A stretch of DNA of 64,000 bases from Ginglymostoma cirratum. Its lineage: Eukaryota. Position numbers and translations under genes: made by a program. The notes below the pieces were generated by a model. It was not told the DNA's origin. It did no database searches and was given only the letters and a program-made list of their open reading frames with translations. How positions within the stretch are numbered: the stretch's first letter is position 1; each line of letters opens with the position of its first letter. Shown here piece by piece: positions 5,376 to 61,231 of this stretch. Where the stretch lies: NCBI GenBank assembly GCA_024137785.1, contig JAHRHZ010000003.1:12295933-12359932 (forward strand), given 5' to 3'.

Positions 5376-8250
5376 TCAATAATTCTGTAAGCTCTCCTCG
5401 TGCTCCAAGCAGCCACCAAAGGTCAAGAATATCTGGTTCAAATAGCAGATTAATTCTGGTTGACAAAAAACAGACAATGACCAGATTTGGTAAAATATGA
5501 TCCCAAATTATTGTCTCAAACTCTTGCTTAGTATTGGCTAATTGGAACAATTTGCAAAATTAAACAATCTGCAATCAGGACAAGTTATTAGTATGTTGTT
5601 GTTATTAAGTTTTTAATGCATGAAATATTCAGCCTCTGACATACCATGTCTTCTGAAATGACGTAAAAGCTACTTACAACAGAATATAGGCTTCTCATCC
5701 CAAATATTGATGGATTTCCCAGCAACCCTGAAACCATGTAACCCACACACTGTTCTCTCTCAGCGCATACATTTGTTGTAAATTGTCGCTCAATCACCCT
5801 TTAACAAAGCTTTTTATGAACCTCAGAAACTCACTGTTCTAAGAGCAGGAGCTATTTTACTTCTCAAATTATTGTCAAGTAACAAAATATTTGTCTGGTT
5901 GTCTGCTGTGAATTGGTGAAATTGTTTTTAAACCAAGATTCCATGCATACTGATTTAAAGTTGTTACATCGTGAGTCTGCACAGTGATCTCTCTCGAACT
6001 GATTGACACTGTCCACCAAATGACGACAAGTCAAAGCGACAAGCTCACAGCTGAAGTAAGGGAGCACATCAGCAGAGGACTTACAAACTGAGTTCCCTAA
6101 GGTATGGAATTCAAATTTTGCTTTTCTCAAAACCAACCTGTACTCACTTCTTACAAAATTGTGAATTTGCAGCAGTGTGCTGGGACCGTGCAATTTTCAT
6201 AATGCTTTCAGCTTTCTGATTCCATCACATTACTTGTGCAAATGAAGTGACACATGCTCATTTCATATAGTGCACACACAAATTTACAATCATTATTTCG
6301 AAAAGCTCAATGTGAGGGATTTCATTTGACAATTAATTAGGTTTGACAATTGGATCACAGTCCAAAAGGAAAGTATTGATTTTCAGGCACTGGTAAAATG
6401 ACAATACAAATCATCATATTCAATTTCAAACAACTTAAAGGGCCAGCAATGATCTGGTGTTAAAGAAAACCTATGAAGACAAGAGATTTGGGTGTTATGA
6501 TAAAAAAAATCATCAAATTAGCAATTGTAAATAATCTGCTGGTCCTCTCTCAATTGCCATTAATCTTGCCTTCTGCCTCATGACATTAGGTTTGGTTGGC
6601 GGCATGGTTTGGTGAGCCCAGGAAGTGAAATTAGTCTTGAGTATCACCAACAAATCCAACAATCAGACAGGATGTAAAATGGACGTTTGAAATTGTTACT
6701 ACTGTTGGGCTGCAGTGAAGCAACTGAGCGGCAAACCTGACAGATTATTATAGACTTCAAAGAAGGAAATTCCAGAAGGCATAAACCATTTTCACTGAGT
6801 GCGTAATGGTATGATTTCGAGCAATAATAAACTATAGTATAGCCAAATATGGAACTACCTATTGCAATTTCAATTTTGATGCACAGACAAATAAAGTTAC
6901 CCTCTTCAAATGTTCTCATTACAAAGATTTTATCTCAATGGGAAGTCGCAAATAGATAGACCATTAAGTGTTAGGCAGGTAGGAAAATGTTTACAAGAAA
7001 TGATTGGAGAAGAATTAATTGGCATTAGGGGAAATATTGTAGAGTAAATGAGCCTAGTAAGATTTTTTAAATGAAAATTAAATCCAATTGAACATGCTTG
7101 GATTATTTGATGAAATAAGAGAGAGAATTCAAGAGGTAGAATTATTAAAGGCACTTAACAATGAGAATGTAGAAATAGATATGATAGCAAAATTGAAGCC
7201 TGTGAAATTATGAACATACAATGAAAGGAGTAGCATTCTGCCCCTCAAGATTAATCATGGCCAATCTGATCTAAATCTCAAATCCACTTTCCCACATAAC
7301 CCCGAGAACATTTCATCCTATTGCTTACGAAGAACCCTGCTTCTACCACCTTTGCAGCAAGAGATTTCCAAATGCTCACAACCGCCTACGAAAAATTATT
7401 TTTTCCTTATCTCTGTTTTAAAAGGGCCACTTCTTATTTTTAAACAGTGACTCCTGAATTCTGCCATAGAAGGAAAAGTCTTTTCCTTATTCACCCTGTC
7501 AAGGTTGTTCAAGACCTACTTTGTTTCAATTAAGTTGCCTGTTGCTGTTCTAAATTCTAACAGACACAAGCCTAGCCTGCCCAACATCTTCTCATAAGAC
7601 GGTCTGTCCATTCCAGGTATTAGTCTGGTAAACCTTCTCTCAACTGATTCCAACACAGAAAATCCTTCCTTAAATACAGAAACCAACACTGTGCATGATA
7701 CCATAGATGTGGTTGCCCAGTGCCCCGTACAAGTGAAGCATAACCCCCCTACTTAGTATTCAATTCTCCAAGTGGTAAATTATGATATTCTATTTGCTTT
7801 CCTGATTACTTGCTGTACCTGCACACTAACCTTTTGTAATTCATGCAAAAGGACATTCAGATCCCTCTGCATTTCAGTGTTCTGCATTCTCTCAATATTT
7901 AGCTAATATTTAGAAAACTTCTATTTTTCCTGCCAAAGTGGACAATTCCACATTTTCACACAATTGCCAGATCTTTGTCGGCTGTCTTAACTAACCTATA
8001 TCCTTTTGTATTTTCCTACCTATCTTTGTGTTATCAGTAATTTTGGTAACTACACCTTCTGACCCTTCATCTAAGTCATTCTTGGAAGTTACAAATATTG
8101 ATTTCTCAGCACTGAAAAAGTTGCATTCATTGCTAATCTTGACTTCCTGTTAGCCAGCCCTGTCTTTTATTCATGTCAATATGTAACTCTCTACACCATG
8201 AGCTCTTATTTTCCACAAGAACTTTTAATGAGACATTTTATAAATGTCTT

Positions 8251-11199: not shown

Positions 11200-11710
11200 A
11201 TGCTGCAAAGTGTTGGGAAAAACTCAGCAGGGCTGGCAGCATCTAACCGTAACTTCCAGTTGCCTTCCATTTCAACACACCATCATGTTTCCTGGCCAGC
11301 ATCTCTGTCTTGGGTTTGCTGCAGTGCTCCAGTGAAGCTTAGCGCAAGCTGGAATAACAGCGCCTCATTTTACATTTGGGAACCCTGCAAGCTTCTTGAC
11401 TCAACATTGAATTCAATCAGTTTAGGCCTTAAGCAGCTTCCCCCATTTCCTTACCCCAAACCCAACGCACCAGGCCTTGTCATCAGAAGGGCTGCTACCA
11501 CAAACAACCCATTGTCAGCCACTGATGATCCCTATTAGCAGCTATTCACTCTCCCAGGCCAACCTTTACCCTTCCCCAATCAGCCAGTTGCTGTTCTCTC
11601 TCTCTGGGCTCCATCTCTAGCAATTGTATATACCTCCTCCCTCCCTCCATATTCAGTATAAATGTCTTTGTTTCTCATTTCCAGCATCCGCTGTTCTTTG
11701 GTTTTATTTT
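11200..11710 (+). mobile_element. Penelope-like element remnant: short inverted terminus, GIY-YIG C-terminus and 3' UTR
   Basis: From about 11254 it reads LPVAFHFNT...VLGLLQCSSEA*RKLE*QRLILHLGTLQ..LNIEFNQF, resembling the PLE endonuclease end. It starts aaactcagcagggctggcagcatct and ends ttccagcatccgctgttctttgg. Confidence 0.8.
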
Positions 11711-38194: not shown

Positions 38195-39000
38195 GTACAA
38201 ATTAGGAGAAGGAGTAGGGTAGGTCGCATGGCCCATTGAGACTGCTCTGCCACTCGATGACATCATGGCTGAGTTGGTTATTCCACAAACCTACCTCTCA
38301 TGATAACCTTTCACCTCTTGCCAAGCTATCCACTTCTGCCTTAAAAAACCCAAAGTGTTAACTCTATTTTACTCGCCTCAAGTGCTGCCAGAGCTGATGA
38401 GCTCCTCCAATACTTTCTGTTTTTATCTCTGATTCTATCAGCTTTTGATGATGATTCGTTCTGAAGACTCACAGCCTTCTGTGAGAAAAGTATTCTTTTC
38501 ATCCCTGACTGAAATGGGCAATTCCTTATATTTAAACGTGACCCTTATTTCTAAATTCTCCCACAAGATTAAACATCTTCTCTAAATTCACCCTGTCAAA
38601 ACCCCTTAGGATCTGACATGTTTCTGTGAGTTGCCTCTTACTCTTCTAAACTCCAGCCAGTACAAGCCTAAACTGTACAAACTTTGCTCCAAAGACAACC
38701 TACCCATTCCAGGTATTAGTCTGCTAAACCTTCTCTGAACTGCTTCTAACATGTTTATATCCTTCCTTATAGTGGAAGACTTAAAACATGCTAAGTACTC
38801 CAGATGTGGACTCAACAGCGTCTTGGATAACTGAAACATAGCCTCCCTACTTTTGCATTCAATTCCCTTGTAGTAGGTGATGGCATTCTGTCAGCTTTCC
38901 TAATTACTTGCTTTACCAGCACACTTACCACTTGCAATTCTTGCACAAGGACATCCAGATCCCTCTGCACCTCAAAGCTCTGCAACCTCTCACCATTTCC
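38195..39000 (-). mobile_element. Old CR1 3' fragment with a small PLE-type arm inserted at about 38355-38435
   Basis: ORF 38606-38839 reads PHLEY...LEAVQRRFSRLIPGM...LGLYWLEFRRVRG. Confidence 0.8.
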
Positions 39001-39237: not shown

Positions 39238-39412
39238 GTTTTGTGGAGGGCTGATACTAGATATCAAAAGGAAACTTCCCTGGTTGCCCAGTGATTTCTA
39301 TGAAGCATTCCACATTCAGTCTGTTTCCACCATCCTCTTCATCTACTTGGGCTGTATCACCAATGCCATCACCTTTGGAGGATTGTTGGGGGATGCAACA
39401 GACAATTATCAG
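39238..39412 (+). CDS. SLC4A5: SLC4A5 exon 12 ([15 protein letters not shown]...GDATDNYQ), TM1
   Basis: cttgcag acceptor, CAG|gtgaga donor. Confidence 0.97.
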
Positions 39413-40048
39413 GTGAGAAATACACCAAACTGACACATCCAATCACTGGATCCTGACACACCCAAATGCACATTAATAGATGATGTGAGGTGACCAACAC
39501 CAGGGCCTAATATACCTTTAAAGTTGAAGAGCAAGACAGAGGCTGATTTTCTATGAAATTTACCATGTTTCAAAATGCATCTGAATTTTGAGAATTCTTA
39601 TAAGAGTGTAACTTTAGTTATCATTCATGAAAGACCATTGTCTCCTGAAAGAGGAAACATTTTCTTTTCTGCAATCAGCATCTGATTCCATTCACTGAAC
39701 TCATAAACTTGAAATGAAGATTCTTTTCTCAGCAGCTTATGTGCAGGAGGATGCATCCAAGATGACTGATGGTGTGCTTGACACACCACTGTGAGGCGAA
39801 AGGGATATGGATCAGAATTATGTTTGGGATGAATTAATATCAGATTATGTTTCACACTGTGGAATTTGCCTTGTCTCACAAATATTACAGAAGCGCATGT
39901 GGCTAAGATCTATTATTTTTAATATTCTCTTGGCAAATAGAGCATCTGTCACCAGCTGCCAAAAACCAGCTGTTGTTATATTAATTGTGCCTTCTGTTTT
40001 TTCACACTACCTGCATGAAAATGAAATATGGAGTAAGGAAAGCTTTAA

Positions 40049-40267
40049 GATACCAAGAACTGCAGATGCTGGAGTCAGAGTCAACACAGTGTGGAGCTGA
40101 AGGAACACAGCAGGTCGGGCAGCATCCGAAAAGTTGGAAAGTCAATGTTTCGGTTTGGACTCTTCTTCAGAACTTCTGAAGAAGGGTCCCAAACCGAAAC
40201 ATTGACTTTCCTACTCCTCTGATGCTGCCTGACCTGCTGTGTTCCTTCAGCTCCACACTGTGTTTAC
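40049..40267. mobile_element. Fold-back Penelope-derived element with 15-bp TSD and hammerhead-like cores
   Basis: Arms of about 95 bp (40078-40172 and 40174-40268) around a 1-nt centre; TSD taaggaaa(g/c)ctttaa at 40034-40048 and 40268-40282. Confidence 0.85.
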
Positions 40268-41607
40268 TAAGGAAACCTTTAATTGAGTTTCCACTTCTAC
40301 TAACTGATTTAAAAGTTTGTAAGGACTGGTCTGTATGACAGCCAAATCACCCATATCCAACTATGTGTGTTATGAGTAACTTACAATAATGTCAACAGTT
40401 TTTTAACTGGGTGCTGCAGCTCACGTGGTAACTATATTAATGCTCCCTCTGATTTTAGGACATCAATACCCTAACTATATTGAGTCTTGAGATGAGGGCG
40501 GAAAGCATTTTAATATGTCAATTTCAAATGAAGTTCTGCCATTTGTGTTCCTGAGGGATGTCCCTTACATAAGAAGTGAAACTGTCATTGATTGGAACCT
40601 TCTTAAGTGCTGAGCTTCCTCGCAATGCTCACATCCCACATATGAGTGCAGTAACTGGTTGTGACATGGAATGCAGTCTCTGGAAAGACAGTGGAAGCAG
40701 ATTCCATTAGTAACTGTCAAAAGGAAATTAGAAATATTCTTGAAAAGGAAACAATTGTACAGCTGCGGGAAAAGTACAGGGACATTGATCCTAATTGGTT
40801 AGTTATTTTCAAAGGGCCAGCACGGACATGATAGGCCAAATGGTCCCTTCTGTGTTATATCATTCTATGTTTCATAAGAACTCTGCAAACAAAGTTGAAA
40901 TAACCAAGTGTTTTAGCAGTCATGATGCCTAGCATGATTGAATCTAAAGAGACAATGCAAAAAGCAAAAAGAATGCAGAGATATTTAGCTAAAATACTAC
41001 TAAGTCAGAGGAAATATATTGCACAGTATTTTGCTTTGAGACAACTCATTGGACTGATGAGTCCAAAAGTAATGAACTGCAAGTGACCTTCAGTGGCAAA
41101 TAAATGCAAAATAATGCTCACAGGGATAAATTAAATATTACATCATGTTAAGTCATGTCAATTGGACAACGACACAAGCTCAAACTAGTGCGAAATAAAT
41201 TTCAGACCATATCAGGAAATAGATCTTTGGCAGAGACTTATTTCCAAGTGAAATAGAGTTCTGGATAGGAAACTAGAATCGTTGAGAAAATAGATGCATC
41301 CTATGGATGGCTGGATATTTCTTCTGGATAGATGATTAACATAGGCCAAATGATTTTCTTCACTGATACTATCTCATGACCTTGTGCATAAATGTATCAT
41401 TCCTTTTTACTTTGTATAGTATGACCAGCAGAAACGTAAGTGTAACCAAATGTCACAGTGGACAATGGAACACTGATACAGAAAGTGTGTTGAGTCAGAT
41501 TAGTTTCAAATTTGGCAACGAGTCAATATTTCTCTTGTTACATCAAATTCAATGTAGCTTAGTGCTTTTTACTTAAATCTAACAGGCTGTTTTGTTTCTG
41601 CAAACAG

Positions 41608-48030: not shown

Positions 48031-48064
48031 GTAAGTGCTCTCCTGAAACACTTATGGGTTGAAA

Positions 48065-48644
48065 GAACACAGCAGATCAAGCAGCATCATAGGAGCAGGA
48101 AAACTTGACGTTTCGGGCCTAAANNNNNNNNNNNNNNNNNNNNNNNNNNNNNNNNNNNNNNNNNNNNNNNNNNNNNNNNNNNNNNNNNNNNNNNNNNNNN
48201 NNNNNNNNNNNNNNNNNNNNNNNNNNNNNNNNNNNNNNNNNNNNNNNNNNNNNNNNNNNNNNNNNNNNNNNNNNNNNNNNNNNNNNNNNNNNNNNNNNNN
48301 NNNNNNNNNNNNNNNNNNNNNNNNNNNNNNNNNNNNNNNNNNNNNNNNNNNNNNNNNNNNNNNNNNNNNNNNNNNNNNNNNNNNNNNNNNNNNNNNNNNN
48401 NNNNNNNNNNNNNNNNNNNNNNNNNNNNNNNNNNNNNNNNNNNNNNNNNNNNNNNNNNNNNNNNNNNNNNNNNNNNNNNNNNNNNNNNNNNNNNNNNNNN
48501 NNNNNNNNNNNNNNNNNNNNNNNACCCTTGGTTTAGGCCCGAAACGTCAAGTTTTCCTGCTCCTATGATGCTGCTTGACCTGCTGTGTTCATCCAGCCCC
48601 ATGCTTGTTATCTCGGATTCTCCAGCATCTGCAGTACCTTTTAT
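48065..48644. mobile_element. Fold-back Penelope-derived element with 16-bp TSD; 400-N gap (48124-48523) at its centre
   Basis: The arms flanking the gap are reverse complements; TSD cacttatgggttgaaa at 48049-48064 and 48645-48660. Confidence 0.88.
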
Positions 48645-49959
48645 CACTTATGGGTTGAAACCTTGCAGATGATCTGCAAGCAGAAGCAGTGCAACAGAAT
48701 TATTCCACAGGCTGCAAAGAATCTTGCCGACAGCTACTGAATCAGATTTGTTAGATGCTGTTGAATTTGCTTCAAACATGTTTGTTGTCCATGCTCGAAT
48801 AGTGGTCGTTACAATTTTATTCTCCCAATCATTTAGAGAAGATGCAATTCTTCAAACAAATAATGTTGAAATTCAGAGTGCAGCTTCCTCCAGCCCTTTT
48901 CACAATAGCATTTACAAAAAGAAAACTTGCCATTCCCAAGCTAAATACTGACGAAGCAGTTAAAATAACTGCAATGTCTTCCTCTGAAACAAATTAAACA
49001 AATAGAGCATAAATTTCAAATGTTGAAGTAATCCATGATCCCAAACATAATTCCCAACTTACCTGTGAGCTGTGTGGAAATATAAAGAAGAAGAATGTAG
49101 GTCATGTGAGCAATGGCATATGAAGTGGAATGCAAAGAATTGACAAGTCAATAGAGTATCATTTTAAAAGTTTCAGCAAAAATCCAGGAATTTCACAATT
49201 CCCATGTAAAATTTGGCTGTGTAGTTGCTCTGCTCCTCACTAATTCCCCTTGCAGTTGAAGCTAGAGCTGCAGATAAGATAGTCTCGCCTCAATGCTGTA
49301 CCTGTGTTTGTGACCTTAACCCTGAATATGTATTTCTCCTTCCTTGCATGACTCTTTCTCCCATGTCCACTTATCCCTTTATTTTCCATTAGATCCGAAG
49401 CCTGATCACAGACTTTTCTACAGTAATCTCCATTCTTGTTTTCTGTGGAATTGATGCTGCTGCCGGACTGGATACACCCAAACTGCATATCCCCAGTGAA
49501 ATCAAGGTTTGAACAGAACTTGGCCATTTAATATCTATAGTCATTTTCCTGTTGCAATGCATACTTTAGAAGGCATCTTTCTACTGATTTTGAACCTGAA
49601 GTGCTCCTAAATGTGGTAGCATAACATTGAAGTAAATGTTATTTCTAATAAAAGGTTTGCCGACTTACATTAGTTTCAGAGTCATGACAACTAAACCAAG
49701 AAACCTTCAACTCTTCATCAAGTAACTTCTCTTCTTCCTCATGGCATACTGCACAGCTGAATCCTCCAACAGAAAGCCAGTGACTTTATCATATTCCATA
49801 AATAGACCAAGGATCTCTTGTCAAAGAGGCAGTAGTTGGTAAAGTAGGATGACCAATCTTGATGCTACATTTTCTTGTTTGCTTTATTTTGTCAAAATTT
49901 TTTTTCATGTATTATCAACTAAGCAGCTCATTGCAGGATACCAAGACCTGAAAAAGCAG

Positions 49960-50097
49960 GTGTCTGGCTACAGCATAAAAATCACCATTTTCCAGCCCAT
50001 TCCGGTTCTGAAGAAGATTCTTATCGGACTTGAAATGTGACCTCCCTTTCTCTCTTCCCAGATGCTGCCAGAGCTGTTGAGTTTCTGTTTTTATTTA
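49960..50097 (+). mobile_element. Single PLE-type terminal arm with a decayed hammerhead core
   Basis: ggttCTGAAGAagattcttatcggacttGAAAtgtgacc...cagatgctgccagagctgttgagtttctg. Confidence 0.6.
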
Positions 50098-52018: not shown

Positions 52019-52639
52019 GTAGGTGATTAATTGAAGTGCCAAGCAGGCTAAATACAAGTGCTTTGGTTACACAGCAATAGTTGGTTCAGTGCGAGGAATG
52101 CAACTATTTGGAACCTCCTCAACATTCCTTCGGGAATCAGGAAGGTTTGCAGTGTTACAACAAGGCTGATGTTGATGGCAATTTAAAGTTTATAATCAAA
52201 ACATGGAAATGCTGTTTCTGGAAGTCAGCTTGTCAGCATTTTGCCTTTCGTCAACTCTGAAATTTTGATAACTGATACAGCAAGTGCCTTGATGTAGCTC
52301 TCTCAATAGAGAATGGCTGTCAGCTATTTCTATTCCTTATCCAGCCTCCTACTCACTCACCACTCACCCCTGTACGATTCTCAGACCTTCCACTCCCCAA
52401 TGTTGCAATTAAAGTTGCCTCTGTAACTTCCAACCCATTCAAATTAGACTGCCAACAATCACAAGCTACCTACATCCACCTGGGATCCGAAGAGTGGCCT
52501 ACACGCCCTGTGCCGTCAGACTGTCAATGTCCACGGGAACTTGAATATTTGCTTTGAGCATCTGTCGTTTGTAAGCTCATCGTTTCCAGCTCCTACCTGT
52601 ACCCATGACATCACAAGGAAACAAGATTTCATTTCTGCA

Positions 52640-52858
52640 ATAAAAACAGAAAATGCTGGAGAAATTCAGCAGGTGAGGCAGCATCAGTGGAGAAAGAAAT
52701 AAAGTTAATGTTTAAAGTCCAATATGATTCTTGTTTAGACGTATATGAGACTCAAAATGTTCATTCTGATGGTGCCTGACCTGCTGAGTTTTTCCAGCAT
52801 TTTCTAATTTTTTTTACTTCAGATCACCAGCATCTCCAGTATTTTGCTTTTGTTTTTA
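52640..52858. mobile_element. Older fold-back PLE-derived element
   Basis: aaaatgctggagaaattcagcaggtgaggcagcatcag is inverted against ctgatggtgcctgacctgctgagtttttccagcatttt; tail ccagcatctccagtattttgctttt. Confidence 0.75.
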
Positions 52859-59676: not shown

Positions 59677-60623
59677 TCATAAACACATCTCTTATAATCG
59701 ACACAAGGATATCCTCAAAATCTTTGCCAAGAATCCAACTAGCACACCCCGTACAGTTAAGCATGACCCAGTTTCAAAAAAGAGGTGGGGACAAATCGGC
59801 TGAGGATCCTAAGTTGGAAGATTTCTGCTACTCCCCCCATCATGTCACTCCTCACTACCTCACTACACTGGAGCCTTAACCAACCCCTGGTGTCAAATGT
59901 TGGCACCACACAATTTCACAAGCATAATCAATCCATAAAAATATCGGGATGGTTGAGTGAGCTGTTTTTTTCCATTAGGGAGGAATATTCTCAGGGAGTT
60001 CTGTCCTGTGGATTCATGTGTAGTGTCAAAACACATCATAACTTAGTTAAACCACCAAGGAACTCGTTTATATTTCTTTAAAATTGAAGAAAAGCTCAGG
60101 TAATGAAGGAGGTTACATTGACAAAGTCATAGGGAAAACAATACAGCAGAATACGGGGAACTTGGCTGCATTTAACCCATGCTGTATAAGCGACTATGTT
60201 ATGTGTAGGGTACAGAAACTCACAATTTGTCCATTCCAAACATTCATTGGACCCTGGCATTATCCAAAGTAACTGCTGCTTATGTGGGAAGCTAGACAAG
60301 TCGATTCCAGCCAAACCCAATGCCCAATTTTCAGCAGAATTAGTTCAACAATACCAAACGTCACTTGCCCAAAAGAAAGTGAACCCAATTACTGCAGTGG
60401 TTATTTCACCACAGAGCAGAACAAAACTTGGGACCTCGTATACGGTCTTGATGATATATCCACATTCCCTTTACTTGCAACTTGGGAAACATAACTTTGT
60501 TATTTTAGTGGAATCAGAGCAGTAAACACTGGATTTTATTTCTAATGCTATCTCATGTGAGCATTCATATGATATGCCCTCCCGTTGCGTCAGCTATCAA
60601 AACCTGTTTCCATAAAATAGTCA

Positions 60624-61231
60624 GAGATAACAAGGCGTGGGGCTGGATGAACACAGCAGGCCAAGCAGCATCATAGGAGCAGGAAAACTTGACGTTTCGG
60701 GCCTANNNNNNNNNNNNNNNNNNNNNNNNNNNNNNNNNNNNNNNNNNNNNNNNNNNNNNNNNNNNNNNNNNNNNNNNNNNNNNNNNNNNNNNNNNNNNNN
60801 NNNNNNNNNNNNNNNNNNNNNNNNNNNNNNNNNNNNNNNNNNNNNNNNNNNNNNNNNNNNNNNNNNNNNNNNNNNNNNNNNNNNNNNNNNNNNNNNNNNN
60901 NNNNNNNNNNNNNNNNNNNNNNNNNNNNNNNNNNNNNNNNNNNNNNNNNNNNNNNNNNNNNNNNNNNNNNNNNNNNNNNNNNNNNNNNNNNNNNNNNNNN
61001 NNNNNNNNNNNNNNNNNNNNNNNNNNNNNNNNNNNNNNNNNNNNNNNNNNNNNNNNNNNNNNNNNNNNNNNNNNNNNNNNNNNNNNNNNNNNNNNNNNNN
61101 NNNNNCTGAAGGGTCTCGGCCCGAAACGTCAAGTTTTCCTGCTCCTATGATGCTGCCTGGCCTGCTGTGTTCATCCAGCCCCACGCCTTGTTATCTCGGA
61201 TTCTCCAGCATCTGCAGTACCTTTTATCACC
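60624..61231. mobile_element. Fold-back Penelope-derived element with 15-bp TSD; 400-N gap (60706-61105) at its centre
   Basis: Inverted arms of about 80 bp nearly identical to the 48-kb copy; TSD tccataaaatagtca at 60609-60623 and 61232-61246. Confidence 0.9.

What the first reader, a model, noticed from the sequence alone, without database searches (positions are those of the whole stretch)
40034..40282. 219-bp fold-back insertion with a minimal hammerhead-ribozyme core on each strand and a 15-bp TSD
Seen: arms of about 95 bp fold around a single C at 40173, and the TSD has one mismatch. The + strand reads CTGAAGA-A-GG-gtcccaaa-CC-GAAAC-ATTG (40176-40204); the - strand reads CTGAAGAAGAGTCCAAACCGAAACATTG. 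Established: CUGANGA...GAAA with a tiny helix II and a palindromic helix III (GAAACGUC) is the minimal, dimer-acting type I hammerhead of Penelope-like element terminal repeats. Inference: GAAACATTG is GAAACGTCG after two CpG deaminations. The unit is non-coding, has its own TSD and has one arm longer than the other. It may be a non-autonomous, ribozyme-bearing hairpin retroelement mobilised by Penelope proteins rather than a DNA-transposon MITE.
Basis: partly seen in the sequence, partly recalled or inferred. Interest (0 to 1): 0.7.

Follow-up and report, generated by a model that had tools for sequence, protein, structure and literature searches.

The report
Fold-back stub of shark Penelope retrotransposon
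This 219-base hairpin in a shark gene's intron is an old, one-off insertion of two mirror-image end-pieces of a known kind of jumping gene (Penelope-like), likely made by copying the front of its RNA onto both sides of a cut, and it shows no sign of spreading as a hairpin itself.

Summary
The hairpin, the 15-bp target-site duplication (TSD) and both hammerhead-like cores are real. A related species holds the empty site (one low-depth contig). The sequence is the terminal repeat (pLTR) of a Penelope-like element with RT, CX2-5CxxC linker and GIY-YIG domains (Neptune-like). The longer arm carries the known ~30-nt 'tail'. It is not a replicating hairpin: of 88 copies picked by tail sequence alone, 41 fold back, each with its own junction, and the rest grade up to kilobase arms that reach the ORF. 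This copy's variants occur nowhere else in the searchable genome. Its ribozyme cores are decayed and lie on opposite strands. Arm 5' ends pile up 126-135 nt from the tail end, upstream of the predicted cleavage site and where the pLTR in front of the ORF also begins. Best model (inferred): both nicked strands prime on the element's 5' pLTR at two start sites, both cDNAs run off the RNA's 5' end, and the two are joined. The layout is published (inverted pLTR plus tail; opposite-strand hammerheads). This scan has noted the same thing many times on other shark DNA.

The parts
40034..40048 (+). Left copy of the 15-bp target-site duplication
   Evidence: empty site in organism D skips insert plus one TSD copy
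40049..40174 (-). Long arm: antisense-placed Penelope pLTR, from 131 nt before the tail end through the tail; inferred cDNA from the tail-end start site
   Evidence: L083: long arm 131, short arm 129, overlap 1
40049..40078 (-). The ~30-nt Penelope 'tail', present on this arm only; in ORF-bearing copies it sits between the pLTR and the ORF's N-terminus
   Evidence: PMC11167929, PMC8557442
40143..40170 (-). Decayed minimal type I hammerhead core (helix II down to 1 bp, helix III G>A, cleavage triplet AUU)
40173..40173 (.). Fold-back centre; the junction of the two arms, which differs from copy to copy
40174..40267 (+). Short arm: sense pLTR from position 129 to about 34 (no tail); inferred cDNA from the second start site
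40176..40204 (+). Decayed minimal type I hammerhead core (helix II 2 bp, helix I broken at one pair, helix III G>A)
40268..40282 (+). Right copy of the TSD (1 mismatch; its first T could also belong to the element)
39238..39412 (+). Host exon of an SLC4-type bicarbonate transporter (AG...GT bounded); the insertion lies in the intron sequence downstream
   Evidence: PF00955, E 2e-22; further exons at ~28724, ~35635, ~43714, ~51782

Best explanation
The hairpin is one old insertion of two head-to-head copies of the hammerhead-bearing terminal repeat (pLTR) of a Neptune-like Penelope retrotransposon, likely made when the element's reverse transcriptase copied the first ~130 nt of its uncleaved RNA onto both strands of a staggered cut and the two cDNAs were joined. 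Shown: identity with the pLTR of an RT + GIY-YIG element; a ~15-bp TSD and an empty site; the tail on one arm only; junctions unique to each copy; arm 5' ends piled at 126-135 nt. Inferred: (1) the GIY-YIG nicks both strands about 15 bp apart; (2) each target 3' end primes RT internally on the 5' pLTR-ORF junction of the RNA, one at the tail end and one ~32 nt further in; (3) both cDNAs run through the unprocessed hammerhead and off the RNA's 5' end, at an Inr-like CCAGTT(C), like a retroviral strong-stop; (4) the two ends are trimmed and joined by end-joining, which gives a new seam each time. In this copy the ribozyme is predicted to be dead and the hairpin to be an inert intronic relic; variants shared by its two arms would come from arm-to-arm conversion or a one-off source RNA.
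For: Parent: L031 runs from a GIY-YIG end through a C/T-rich UTR into the unit. 28 of 30 GIY-YIG loci hold a match to the unit. The tailed arm of exact-tail copy L115 continues into RT residues 143-697 of P0001, which has RVT_1, GIY-YIG, DKG, YIDD, CX2-5CxxC and the CCHH cysteines. Two-site priming: 22 of 41 short arms end 30-36 nt before the tail end and only 1 of 41 carries a tail; the same asymmetry recurs at kilobase scale in L202, L203 and L208. The short arm reaches further 5' than the long arm by more than 5 nt in 15 of 41 copies and the reverse holds in 15 of 41, so as they stand neither arm can be a copy of the other. Frangieh 2024 (PMC11167929) showed in vitro that a Penelope protein nicks and extends both strands, starts at two internal sites that define the tail, and uses uncleaved RNA. 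TSDs of 10-19 bp are above null in 20 of 28 and 28 of 41. RNA 5' end: 36 of 88 tailed arms stop at 126-135 and only 4 of 88 at 136-200. The pLTR directly in front of the ORF starts at 122-135 in 15 of 27 loci and beyond 135 in 1 of 27, against 18 of 88 for tailed arms (Fisher p = 0.04). Variation at positions 133-127 keeps YYANWYY while breaking one helix I pair (consensus recalled). No peak at the predicted cleavage site: 2 of 393 ends at 99-101.
Against: Asymmetric centres could also arise after insertion, by deletion in an unstable palindrome; my data do not exclude this, though 27 of 41 junctions have extra bases rather than overlap. Frangieh saw no difference in start site between the two strands, so pairing 'tail on one strand, no tail on the other' is my inference. 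The two arms of a copy share more derived variants than chance (103 against 62 expected in 68 copies; 6 against 1.25 here), which self-copying or conversion also predicts. The start-site reading has no RNA evidence; a cap-G test was inconclusive (G 7, A 6, T 1 of 14 non-C). BLAST ends are fuzzy by a few nt. The empty site rests on one contig of depth 3.6. The 714-aa ORF belongs to a sister subfamily (77-78% DNA identity); no intact ORF of the exact subfamily was found. Neptune versus Nematis was not tested by a tree.
Confidence: 0.7

Rival explanations
1. A non-autonomous ribozyme-bearing hairpin retroelement that is copied as a 219-bp unit by Penelope proteins.
For: The 40 best-scoring places of a 219-bp search all show the same asymmetric hairpin at 82-89% identity, apart from the locus itself. 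L020 has the same central seam as this copy.
Against: That search selects for similarity. In tail-only selection 41 of 41 fold-back junctions differ and 47 of 88 copies are not short fold-backs. L020 shares none of this copy's six derived variants on the long arm and only one CpG change on the short arm. The 25-nt haplotype is unique. Short-arm 3' ends vary from copy to copy at the target junction.
Confidence: 0.04
2. One cDNA (or an antisense template) self-primes and copies itself into a palindrome, as proposed for Adineta elements, or a full 131/131 palindrome was inserted and later eroded by central deletions.
For: This copy is a perfect fold-back around 1 nt and its arms share 6 derived variants. 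Shared variants are in excess across copies. PMC3846280 (Discussion) argues for self-priming.
Against: In 15 of 41 copies the short arm holds sequence that the long arm lacks. Self-copying gives no reason to stop 30-36 nt before the tail end, which is a known RT start site. Many seams hold inserted or re-copied bases (L110, L133).
Confidence: 0.2
3. Twin priming is right, but the 126-135 pile-up marks an RT stall or processing point (end of the hammerhead fold, the C-rich tract, or a splice acceptor-like CAG) rather than the transcription start.
For: The pile-up coincides with the 5' strand of helix I and follows a polypyrimidine tract ending in CAG. In D. virilis an intron ends at helix I (PMC4209133). 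17 of 88 arms do read through this point.
Against: Ends keep CC or CCC upstream of AG in 17 of 31 and 9 of 17 cases, which splicing would remove. The sister subfamily has no AG there yet stops at the same place. The pLTR in front of the ORF starts there too.
Confidence: 0.25
4. The fold-back point is set by hammerhead self-cleavage of the template RNA.
For: The motif is a good minimal hammerhead in consensus and varies mainly at the free N7 position (A 119 / T 111 of 246).
Against: Cleavage is predicted at position 99/100, ~30 nt from the fold point; only 2 of 393 ends fall at 99-101. Cleavage was dispensable in vitro (PMC11167929).
Confidence: 0.03
5. A DNA-transposon MITE or foldback element.
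For: Long inverted repeats, non-coding, high copy number.
Against: TSDs of variable length (10-19 bp), asymmetric ends, continuity with an RT/GIY-YIG ORF.
Confidence: 0.01

Closest known systems
EN+ Penelope-like insertions with inverted pLTR, one-sided tail and TSD (Adineta Pen2a_Av, PMC3846280, passages and Discussion read; PMC8557442 Fig. 2 legend, passages read)
   Same: Head-to-head pLTRs, a 30-40 bp tail at one end only, a TSD, a hammerhead in the pLTR, heavy 5' truncation.
   Different: Here no ORF lies between the repeats: both halves are only 95-126 bp, the TSD is longer (mode 14-15 against 8-10 bp), and the 5' ends cluster at one point.
Poseidon of Anolis carolinensis, PAc (PMC11167929, parts 1-2 of 4 read, supplements not seen)
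   Same: Two internal RT start sites that define the tail, about 100-130 nt downstream of a hammerhead; both strands nicked and extended; uncleaved RNA used as template.
   Different: Different clade (this parent has the CX2-5CxxC linker); the ORF here appears to start after the tail; fold-back products were not described in the parts read.
Minimal type I hammerheads of metazoan PLEs (PMC4209133, parts 1-2 of 4 read)
   Same: CUGANGA, extra nucleotide between 9 and 10.1, G10.1-C11.1, palindromic GAAACGUC, short helix I; 'dual min-HHRs ... in opposite strands' were already noted in Schistosoma.
   Different: Helix II is 4-5 bp, not 7-8; this copy is decayed; sharks are not named in the parts read.
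Non-LTR retrozymes (bioRxiv 10.64898/2026.07.22.740005, parts 1-3 of 5 read)
   Same: Non-coding, derived from a PLE pLTR, type I hammerhead.
   Different: Retrozymes are head-to-tail tandems with two same-strand ribozymes; this is head-to-head with opposite-strand, decayed cores.
L1 twin priming (Ostertag and Kazazian; recalled, not read)
   Same: Two primers from the two target nicks give an inversion inside a TSD.
   Different: In L1 the second primer anneals at variable internal sites and the two pieces do not overlap; here both cDNAs cover the same ~100 nt from two fixed start sites.

Membership tests
EN+ Penelope-like element (fragment of) | [quoted passage not shown] | tested here: met
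   the intact 714-aa frame is from a sister subfamily, broken frames from the exact subfamily match it at 44-94% aa in pieces
EN+ Penelope-like element (fragment of) | Inverted 5'-truncated copy and a 30-40 bp tail at one end | tested here: met
EN+ Penelope-like element (fragment of) | TSD of variable length | tested here: met
   20 of 28, 28 of 41; empty site
Neptune clade | CX2-5CxxC Zn-finger-like linker between RT and EN (shared with Nematis) | tested here: met
   P0001 residue 563; also in the exact subfamily's working reference
Neptune clade | RT phylogeny grouping with named Neptune elements | not tested
   no named reference sequences came from a tool
Minimal type I hammerhead (family consensus) | Core CUGANGA / GAAA / UH conserved, with variation at N7 | tested here: met
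   non-CpG core positions 95-98% conserved, N7 A 119 / T 111 of 246
Minimal type I hammerhead (family consensus) | Helices I and II paired with compensatory changes | tested here: inconclusive
   four helix II pairs 88-95% paired, mostly wobble changes; helix I 89-94% at three pairs (one T-A/C-G switch) but 57% at the fourth
Minimal type I hammerhead (this copy) | Intact helix II and palindromic helix III | tested here: not met
   helix II 2 and 1 bp, GAAACAUU in both cores
Minimal type I hammerhead | Self-cleavage as dimer or with protein | not testable with these tools
   needs an in vitro assay
Non-LTR retrozyme | Head-to-tail tandem units with at least two same-strand hammerheads | tested here: not met
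   head-to-head, opposite strands
Replicating non-autonomous hairpin element | Recurrent inversion point and shared variants among copies | tested here: not met
MITE / DNA foldback transposon | Symmetric terminal inverted repeats and a fixed short TSD | tested here: not met

The most novel reading that the evidence does not exclude
Shark Neptune elements make a strong-stop cDNA of their own 5' pLTR from an Inr start just ahead of the hammerhead, on both target strands and from two start sites. Joining two such cDNAs gives these hairpins; jumping one of them onto the RNA body gives pLTR-body-pLTR minis and, by extension, the pLTRs and inverted ends of all Penelope-like elements. The thousands of stubs would be a genomic record of a retrovirus-like strand transfer in a target-primed element.
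Probability: 0.45. Interest if true: 0.55.

Novelty: new member of a known kind. Interest (0 to 1): 0.25.

Why it matters
As an object it is ordinary: one of very many decayed Penelope stubs in a shark intron. Its value lies in the population. How Penelope-like elements make pLTRs, inverted ends and tails is still open in the papers read, and the ends of these copies give exact predictions (RNA start, two priming sites, ~15-bp stagger, no use of the ribozyme cut) that the existing in vitro system can test.

Tried and rejected
Rfam scan: no hammerhead model hit; the microRNA-precursor hits only reflect the long hairpin and are below gathering. Cap signature (extra G at the 5' end): inconclusive. 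Hammerhead cleavage as the fold point: no peak at 99-101. Splice acceptor as the 5' boundary: disfavoured, see rivals. Segment X as a fixed ~380-nt retrozyme monomer: rejected, X is the ORF's N-terminus and the join to the next pLTR varies. Relation between hairpin loop size and variant sharing by the arms: weak (rho -0.32, p = 0.075, n = 31). Random genome sampling was poor: 9 of 20 stretches read almost wholly N, so all copy counts are lower bounds. No RNA holder listed. A second look at the empty site in other runs was not obtained, so it rests on one contig. Literature searches for a published twin-priming or strong-stop model of Penelope elements, or a paper on these shark hairpins, found none; the library lacks most subscription papers and Repbase, and the supplements of PMC11167929 and of the bioRxiv preprint, which may bear on this, were not seen.

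Full report
OBSERVATION. A 219-bp insert (40049-40267) lies between 15-bp direct repeats with one mismatch. Arms of 94 and 95 bp fold around C40173; a further 30 bp on the left has no partner. The fold is far beyond chance (z = -19). CTGAAGA...GAAAC cores start at 40176 (+) and 40170 (-). Rfam finds no hammerhead here, only hairpin models below threshold. One contig of a more distant species (organism D, run X17, depth 3.6) joins 40042 to 40277, which skips exactly the insert plus one TSD copy; contigs of organisms A and B run into the insert from both sides. So this is a real, old insertion. It lies in an intron of an SLC4-type bicarbonate transporter gene. The nearest named homologues of the element's protein are from carpet sharks (74-90%), so the host is probably a shark.

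WHAT THE SEQUENCE IS. A pattern reaching just upstream of the core found L031, where the unit follows a GIY-YIG C-terminus and a C/T-rich UTR. 28 of 30 GIY-YIG loci hold a match to the unit. A sister-subfamily copy (77-78% DNA identity) has a 714-aa open frame with RVT_1 and GIY-YIG hits, DKG, YIDD, a CX2-5CxxC linker and the CCHH cysteines. By PMC8557442 (passages read) this marks Neptune or Nematis. Copies with the exact tail continue into the same ORF, L115 as far as RT residue 143. On the other side, the sequence that follows the tail in many copies translates into the ORF's N-terminus and reaches DKG. The unit is therefore the pLTR plus tail of an autonomous-type Penelope-like element.

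DOES THE HAIRPIN REPLICATE? A search with the whole 219 bp gave 4039 candidates, 40 scored, all similar hairpins; 28 were aligned and their centres differed. Since that search selects for shape, I took copies by a 32-nt tail motif alone: 180 exact hits, 90 fetched from the first 100 listed, 88 parsed after dropping one duplicate and one cut by N; this locus is among them. Result: 41 short fold-backs, 28 with no detectable or a very short second arm, 17 with arms over 145 nt running into UTR and ORF, 2 with internal jumps. All 41 fold-backs differ in arm ends and spacer. TSDs above the 99th percentile of a mismatched-flank null were found in 28 of 41 fold-backs (10-18 bp) and 10 of 28 singles, and in 20 of 28 in the first set. 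The same layout, tail on one arm only, recurs with kilobase arms (L202, L203, L208). The 25-nt haplotype of this copy occurs once.

HOW IT WAS MADE. Short arms end 30-36 nt before the tail end in 22 of 41; 1 of 41 has a tail. The short arm reaches further 5' than the long arm in 15 of 41 and the reverse holds in 15 of 41. Frangieh et al. (PMC11167929; parts 1-2 of 4 read) found that a Penelope protein nicks and extends both strands, starts at two internal sites that bound the tail, and uses uncleaved RNA. The simplest fit is that each nick primes its own cDNA, one from each site, and the two are joined. This is inference. Against it: they saw no strand difference in start site; central deletions after insertion could mimic the asymmetry; and arms share more variants than chance (103 against 62 in 68 copies; 6 against 1.25 here), which points to conversion, self-copying or a shared odd template. 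Arkhipova et al. (PMC3846280; passages and Discussion read) favour self-priming.

WHY THE FOLD IS AT THE RIBOZYME. 36 of 88 tailed arms stop at 126-135 nt from the tail end, 4 at 136-200 and 14 beyond. The predicted cleavage site is at 99/100 (hammerhead numbering recalled); 2 of 393 unit ends in all loci fall at 99-101 (this set mixes subfamilies and selection schemes). The pLTR directly in front of the ORF starts at 122-135 in 15 of 27 loci, shorter in 11 and longer in 1 (counted by eye; Fisher p = 0.04 against tailed arms). In 17 of 30 such loci a piece of the 5' body is followed by another pLTR starting at 127-135. Positions 133-127 fit the Inr consensus YYANWYY (recalled) in both subfamilies, varying at N and Y. 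D. virilis Penelope has an internal promoter with an Inr (PMC2377424; passages read). I read 131-134 as the RNA's 5' end. There is no RNA evidence, and the cap-G test was inconclusive.

THE RIBOZYME. The family consensus is a minimal type I hammerhead as in PMC4209133 (parts 1-2 of 4 read): conserved core, free N7 (A 119 / T 111 of 246), an extra A before helix II, helix II 88-95% paired at four pairs, palindromic GAAACGUC, and a weak helix I. In a cofold of two consensus copies helix II is kept and the palindromic region pairs between molecules. In this copy both cores have lost the helix III G and most of helix II, lie on opposite strands, and would be buried in the hairpin; I predict no activity.

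WHAT IS KNOWN. Inverted 5'-truncated pLTRs, one-sided tails and TSDs are described (PMC8557442, PMC3846280), and so are paired minimal hammerheads on opposite strands (PMC4209133). It is not a non-LTR retrozyme (bioRxiv 10.64898/2026.07.22.740005; parts 1-3 of 5 read) and not a MITE. Seven searches found no paper giving the twin-priming or run-off model for Penelope elements, within a library that lacks most subscription papers. My reading was stated before I looked up earlier notes (no sequence match). Those notes show 142 word matches in at least 15 genomes and 106 in this genome with much the same conclusion; they are unchecked AI notes and not independent support. Two of them lean to a copied hairpin or a cleavage-site start; my samples do not support either for this family.

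VERDICT. Real, ordinary as an object, a new member of a known kind. Modest interest for the mechanism that the population implies: 0.25.

Noticed in passing
window 48056-48647 and 60621-61230: Two more inverted pairs of a sister subfamily, each with a 400-N run (48124-48523, 60706-61105) exactly between its arms.
   Followed up: partly
window 52639-52814, 49937-50086, 11221-11426: Older decayed relatives: a fold-back, a single unit, and a GIY-YIG end fragment.
   Followed up: partly
window 28724-59220, + strand: Exons of an SLC4-family bicarbonate transporter (PF07565, PF00955) span this part of the window; the hairpin would be in its pre-mRNA (28 frames scanned, 6 with hits).
   Followed up: partly
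L172-L201: 17 of 30 loci picked by the ORF's 5' segment read pLTR - variable length of 5' body - pLTR starting again at 127-135, often with short microhomology: mini-elements that look like template jumps (counted by eye).
   Followed up: partly
L083 (this locus), L010, L011, L112, L131: The two arms share far more derived variants than expected, including CpG-type changes; possible arm-to-arm gene conversion in genomic palindromes.
   Followed up: partly
L147 and L148: About 4.7 kb identical in opposite orientation on one contig: a recent inverted duplication or an assembly artefact.
   Followed up: no
window 7375-7900 and 38468-38998: Two ~530-bp repeats at 70% identity, unrelated to this element.
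   Followed up: no
L207:2655-4622: A 656-aa open frame of an APE-endonuclease LINE directly upstream of a truncated Penelope ORF.
   Followed up: no
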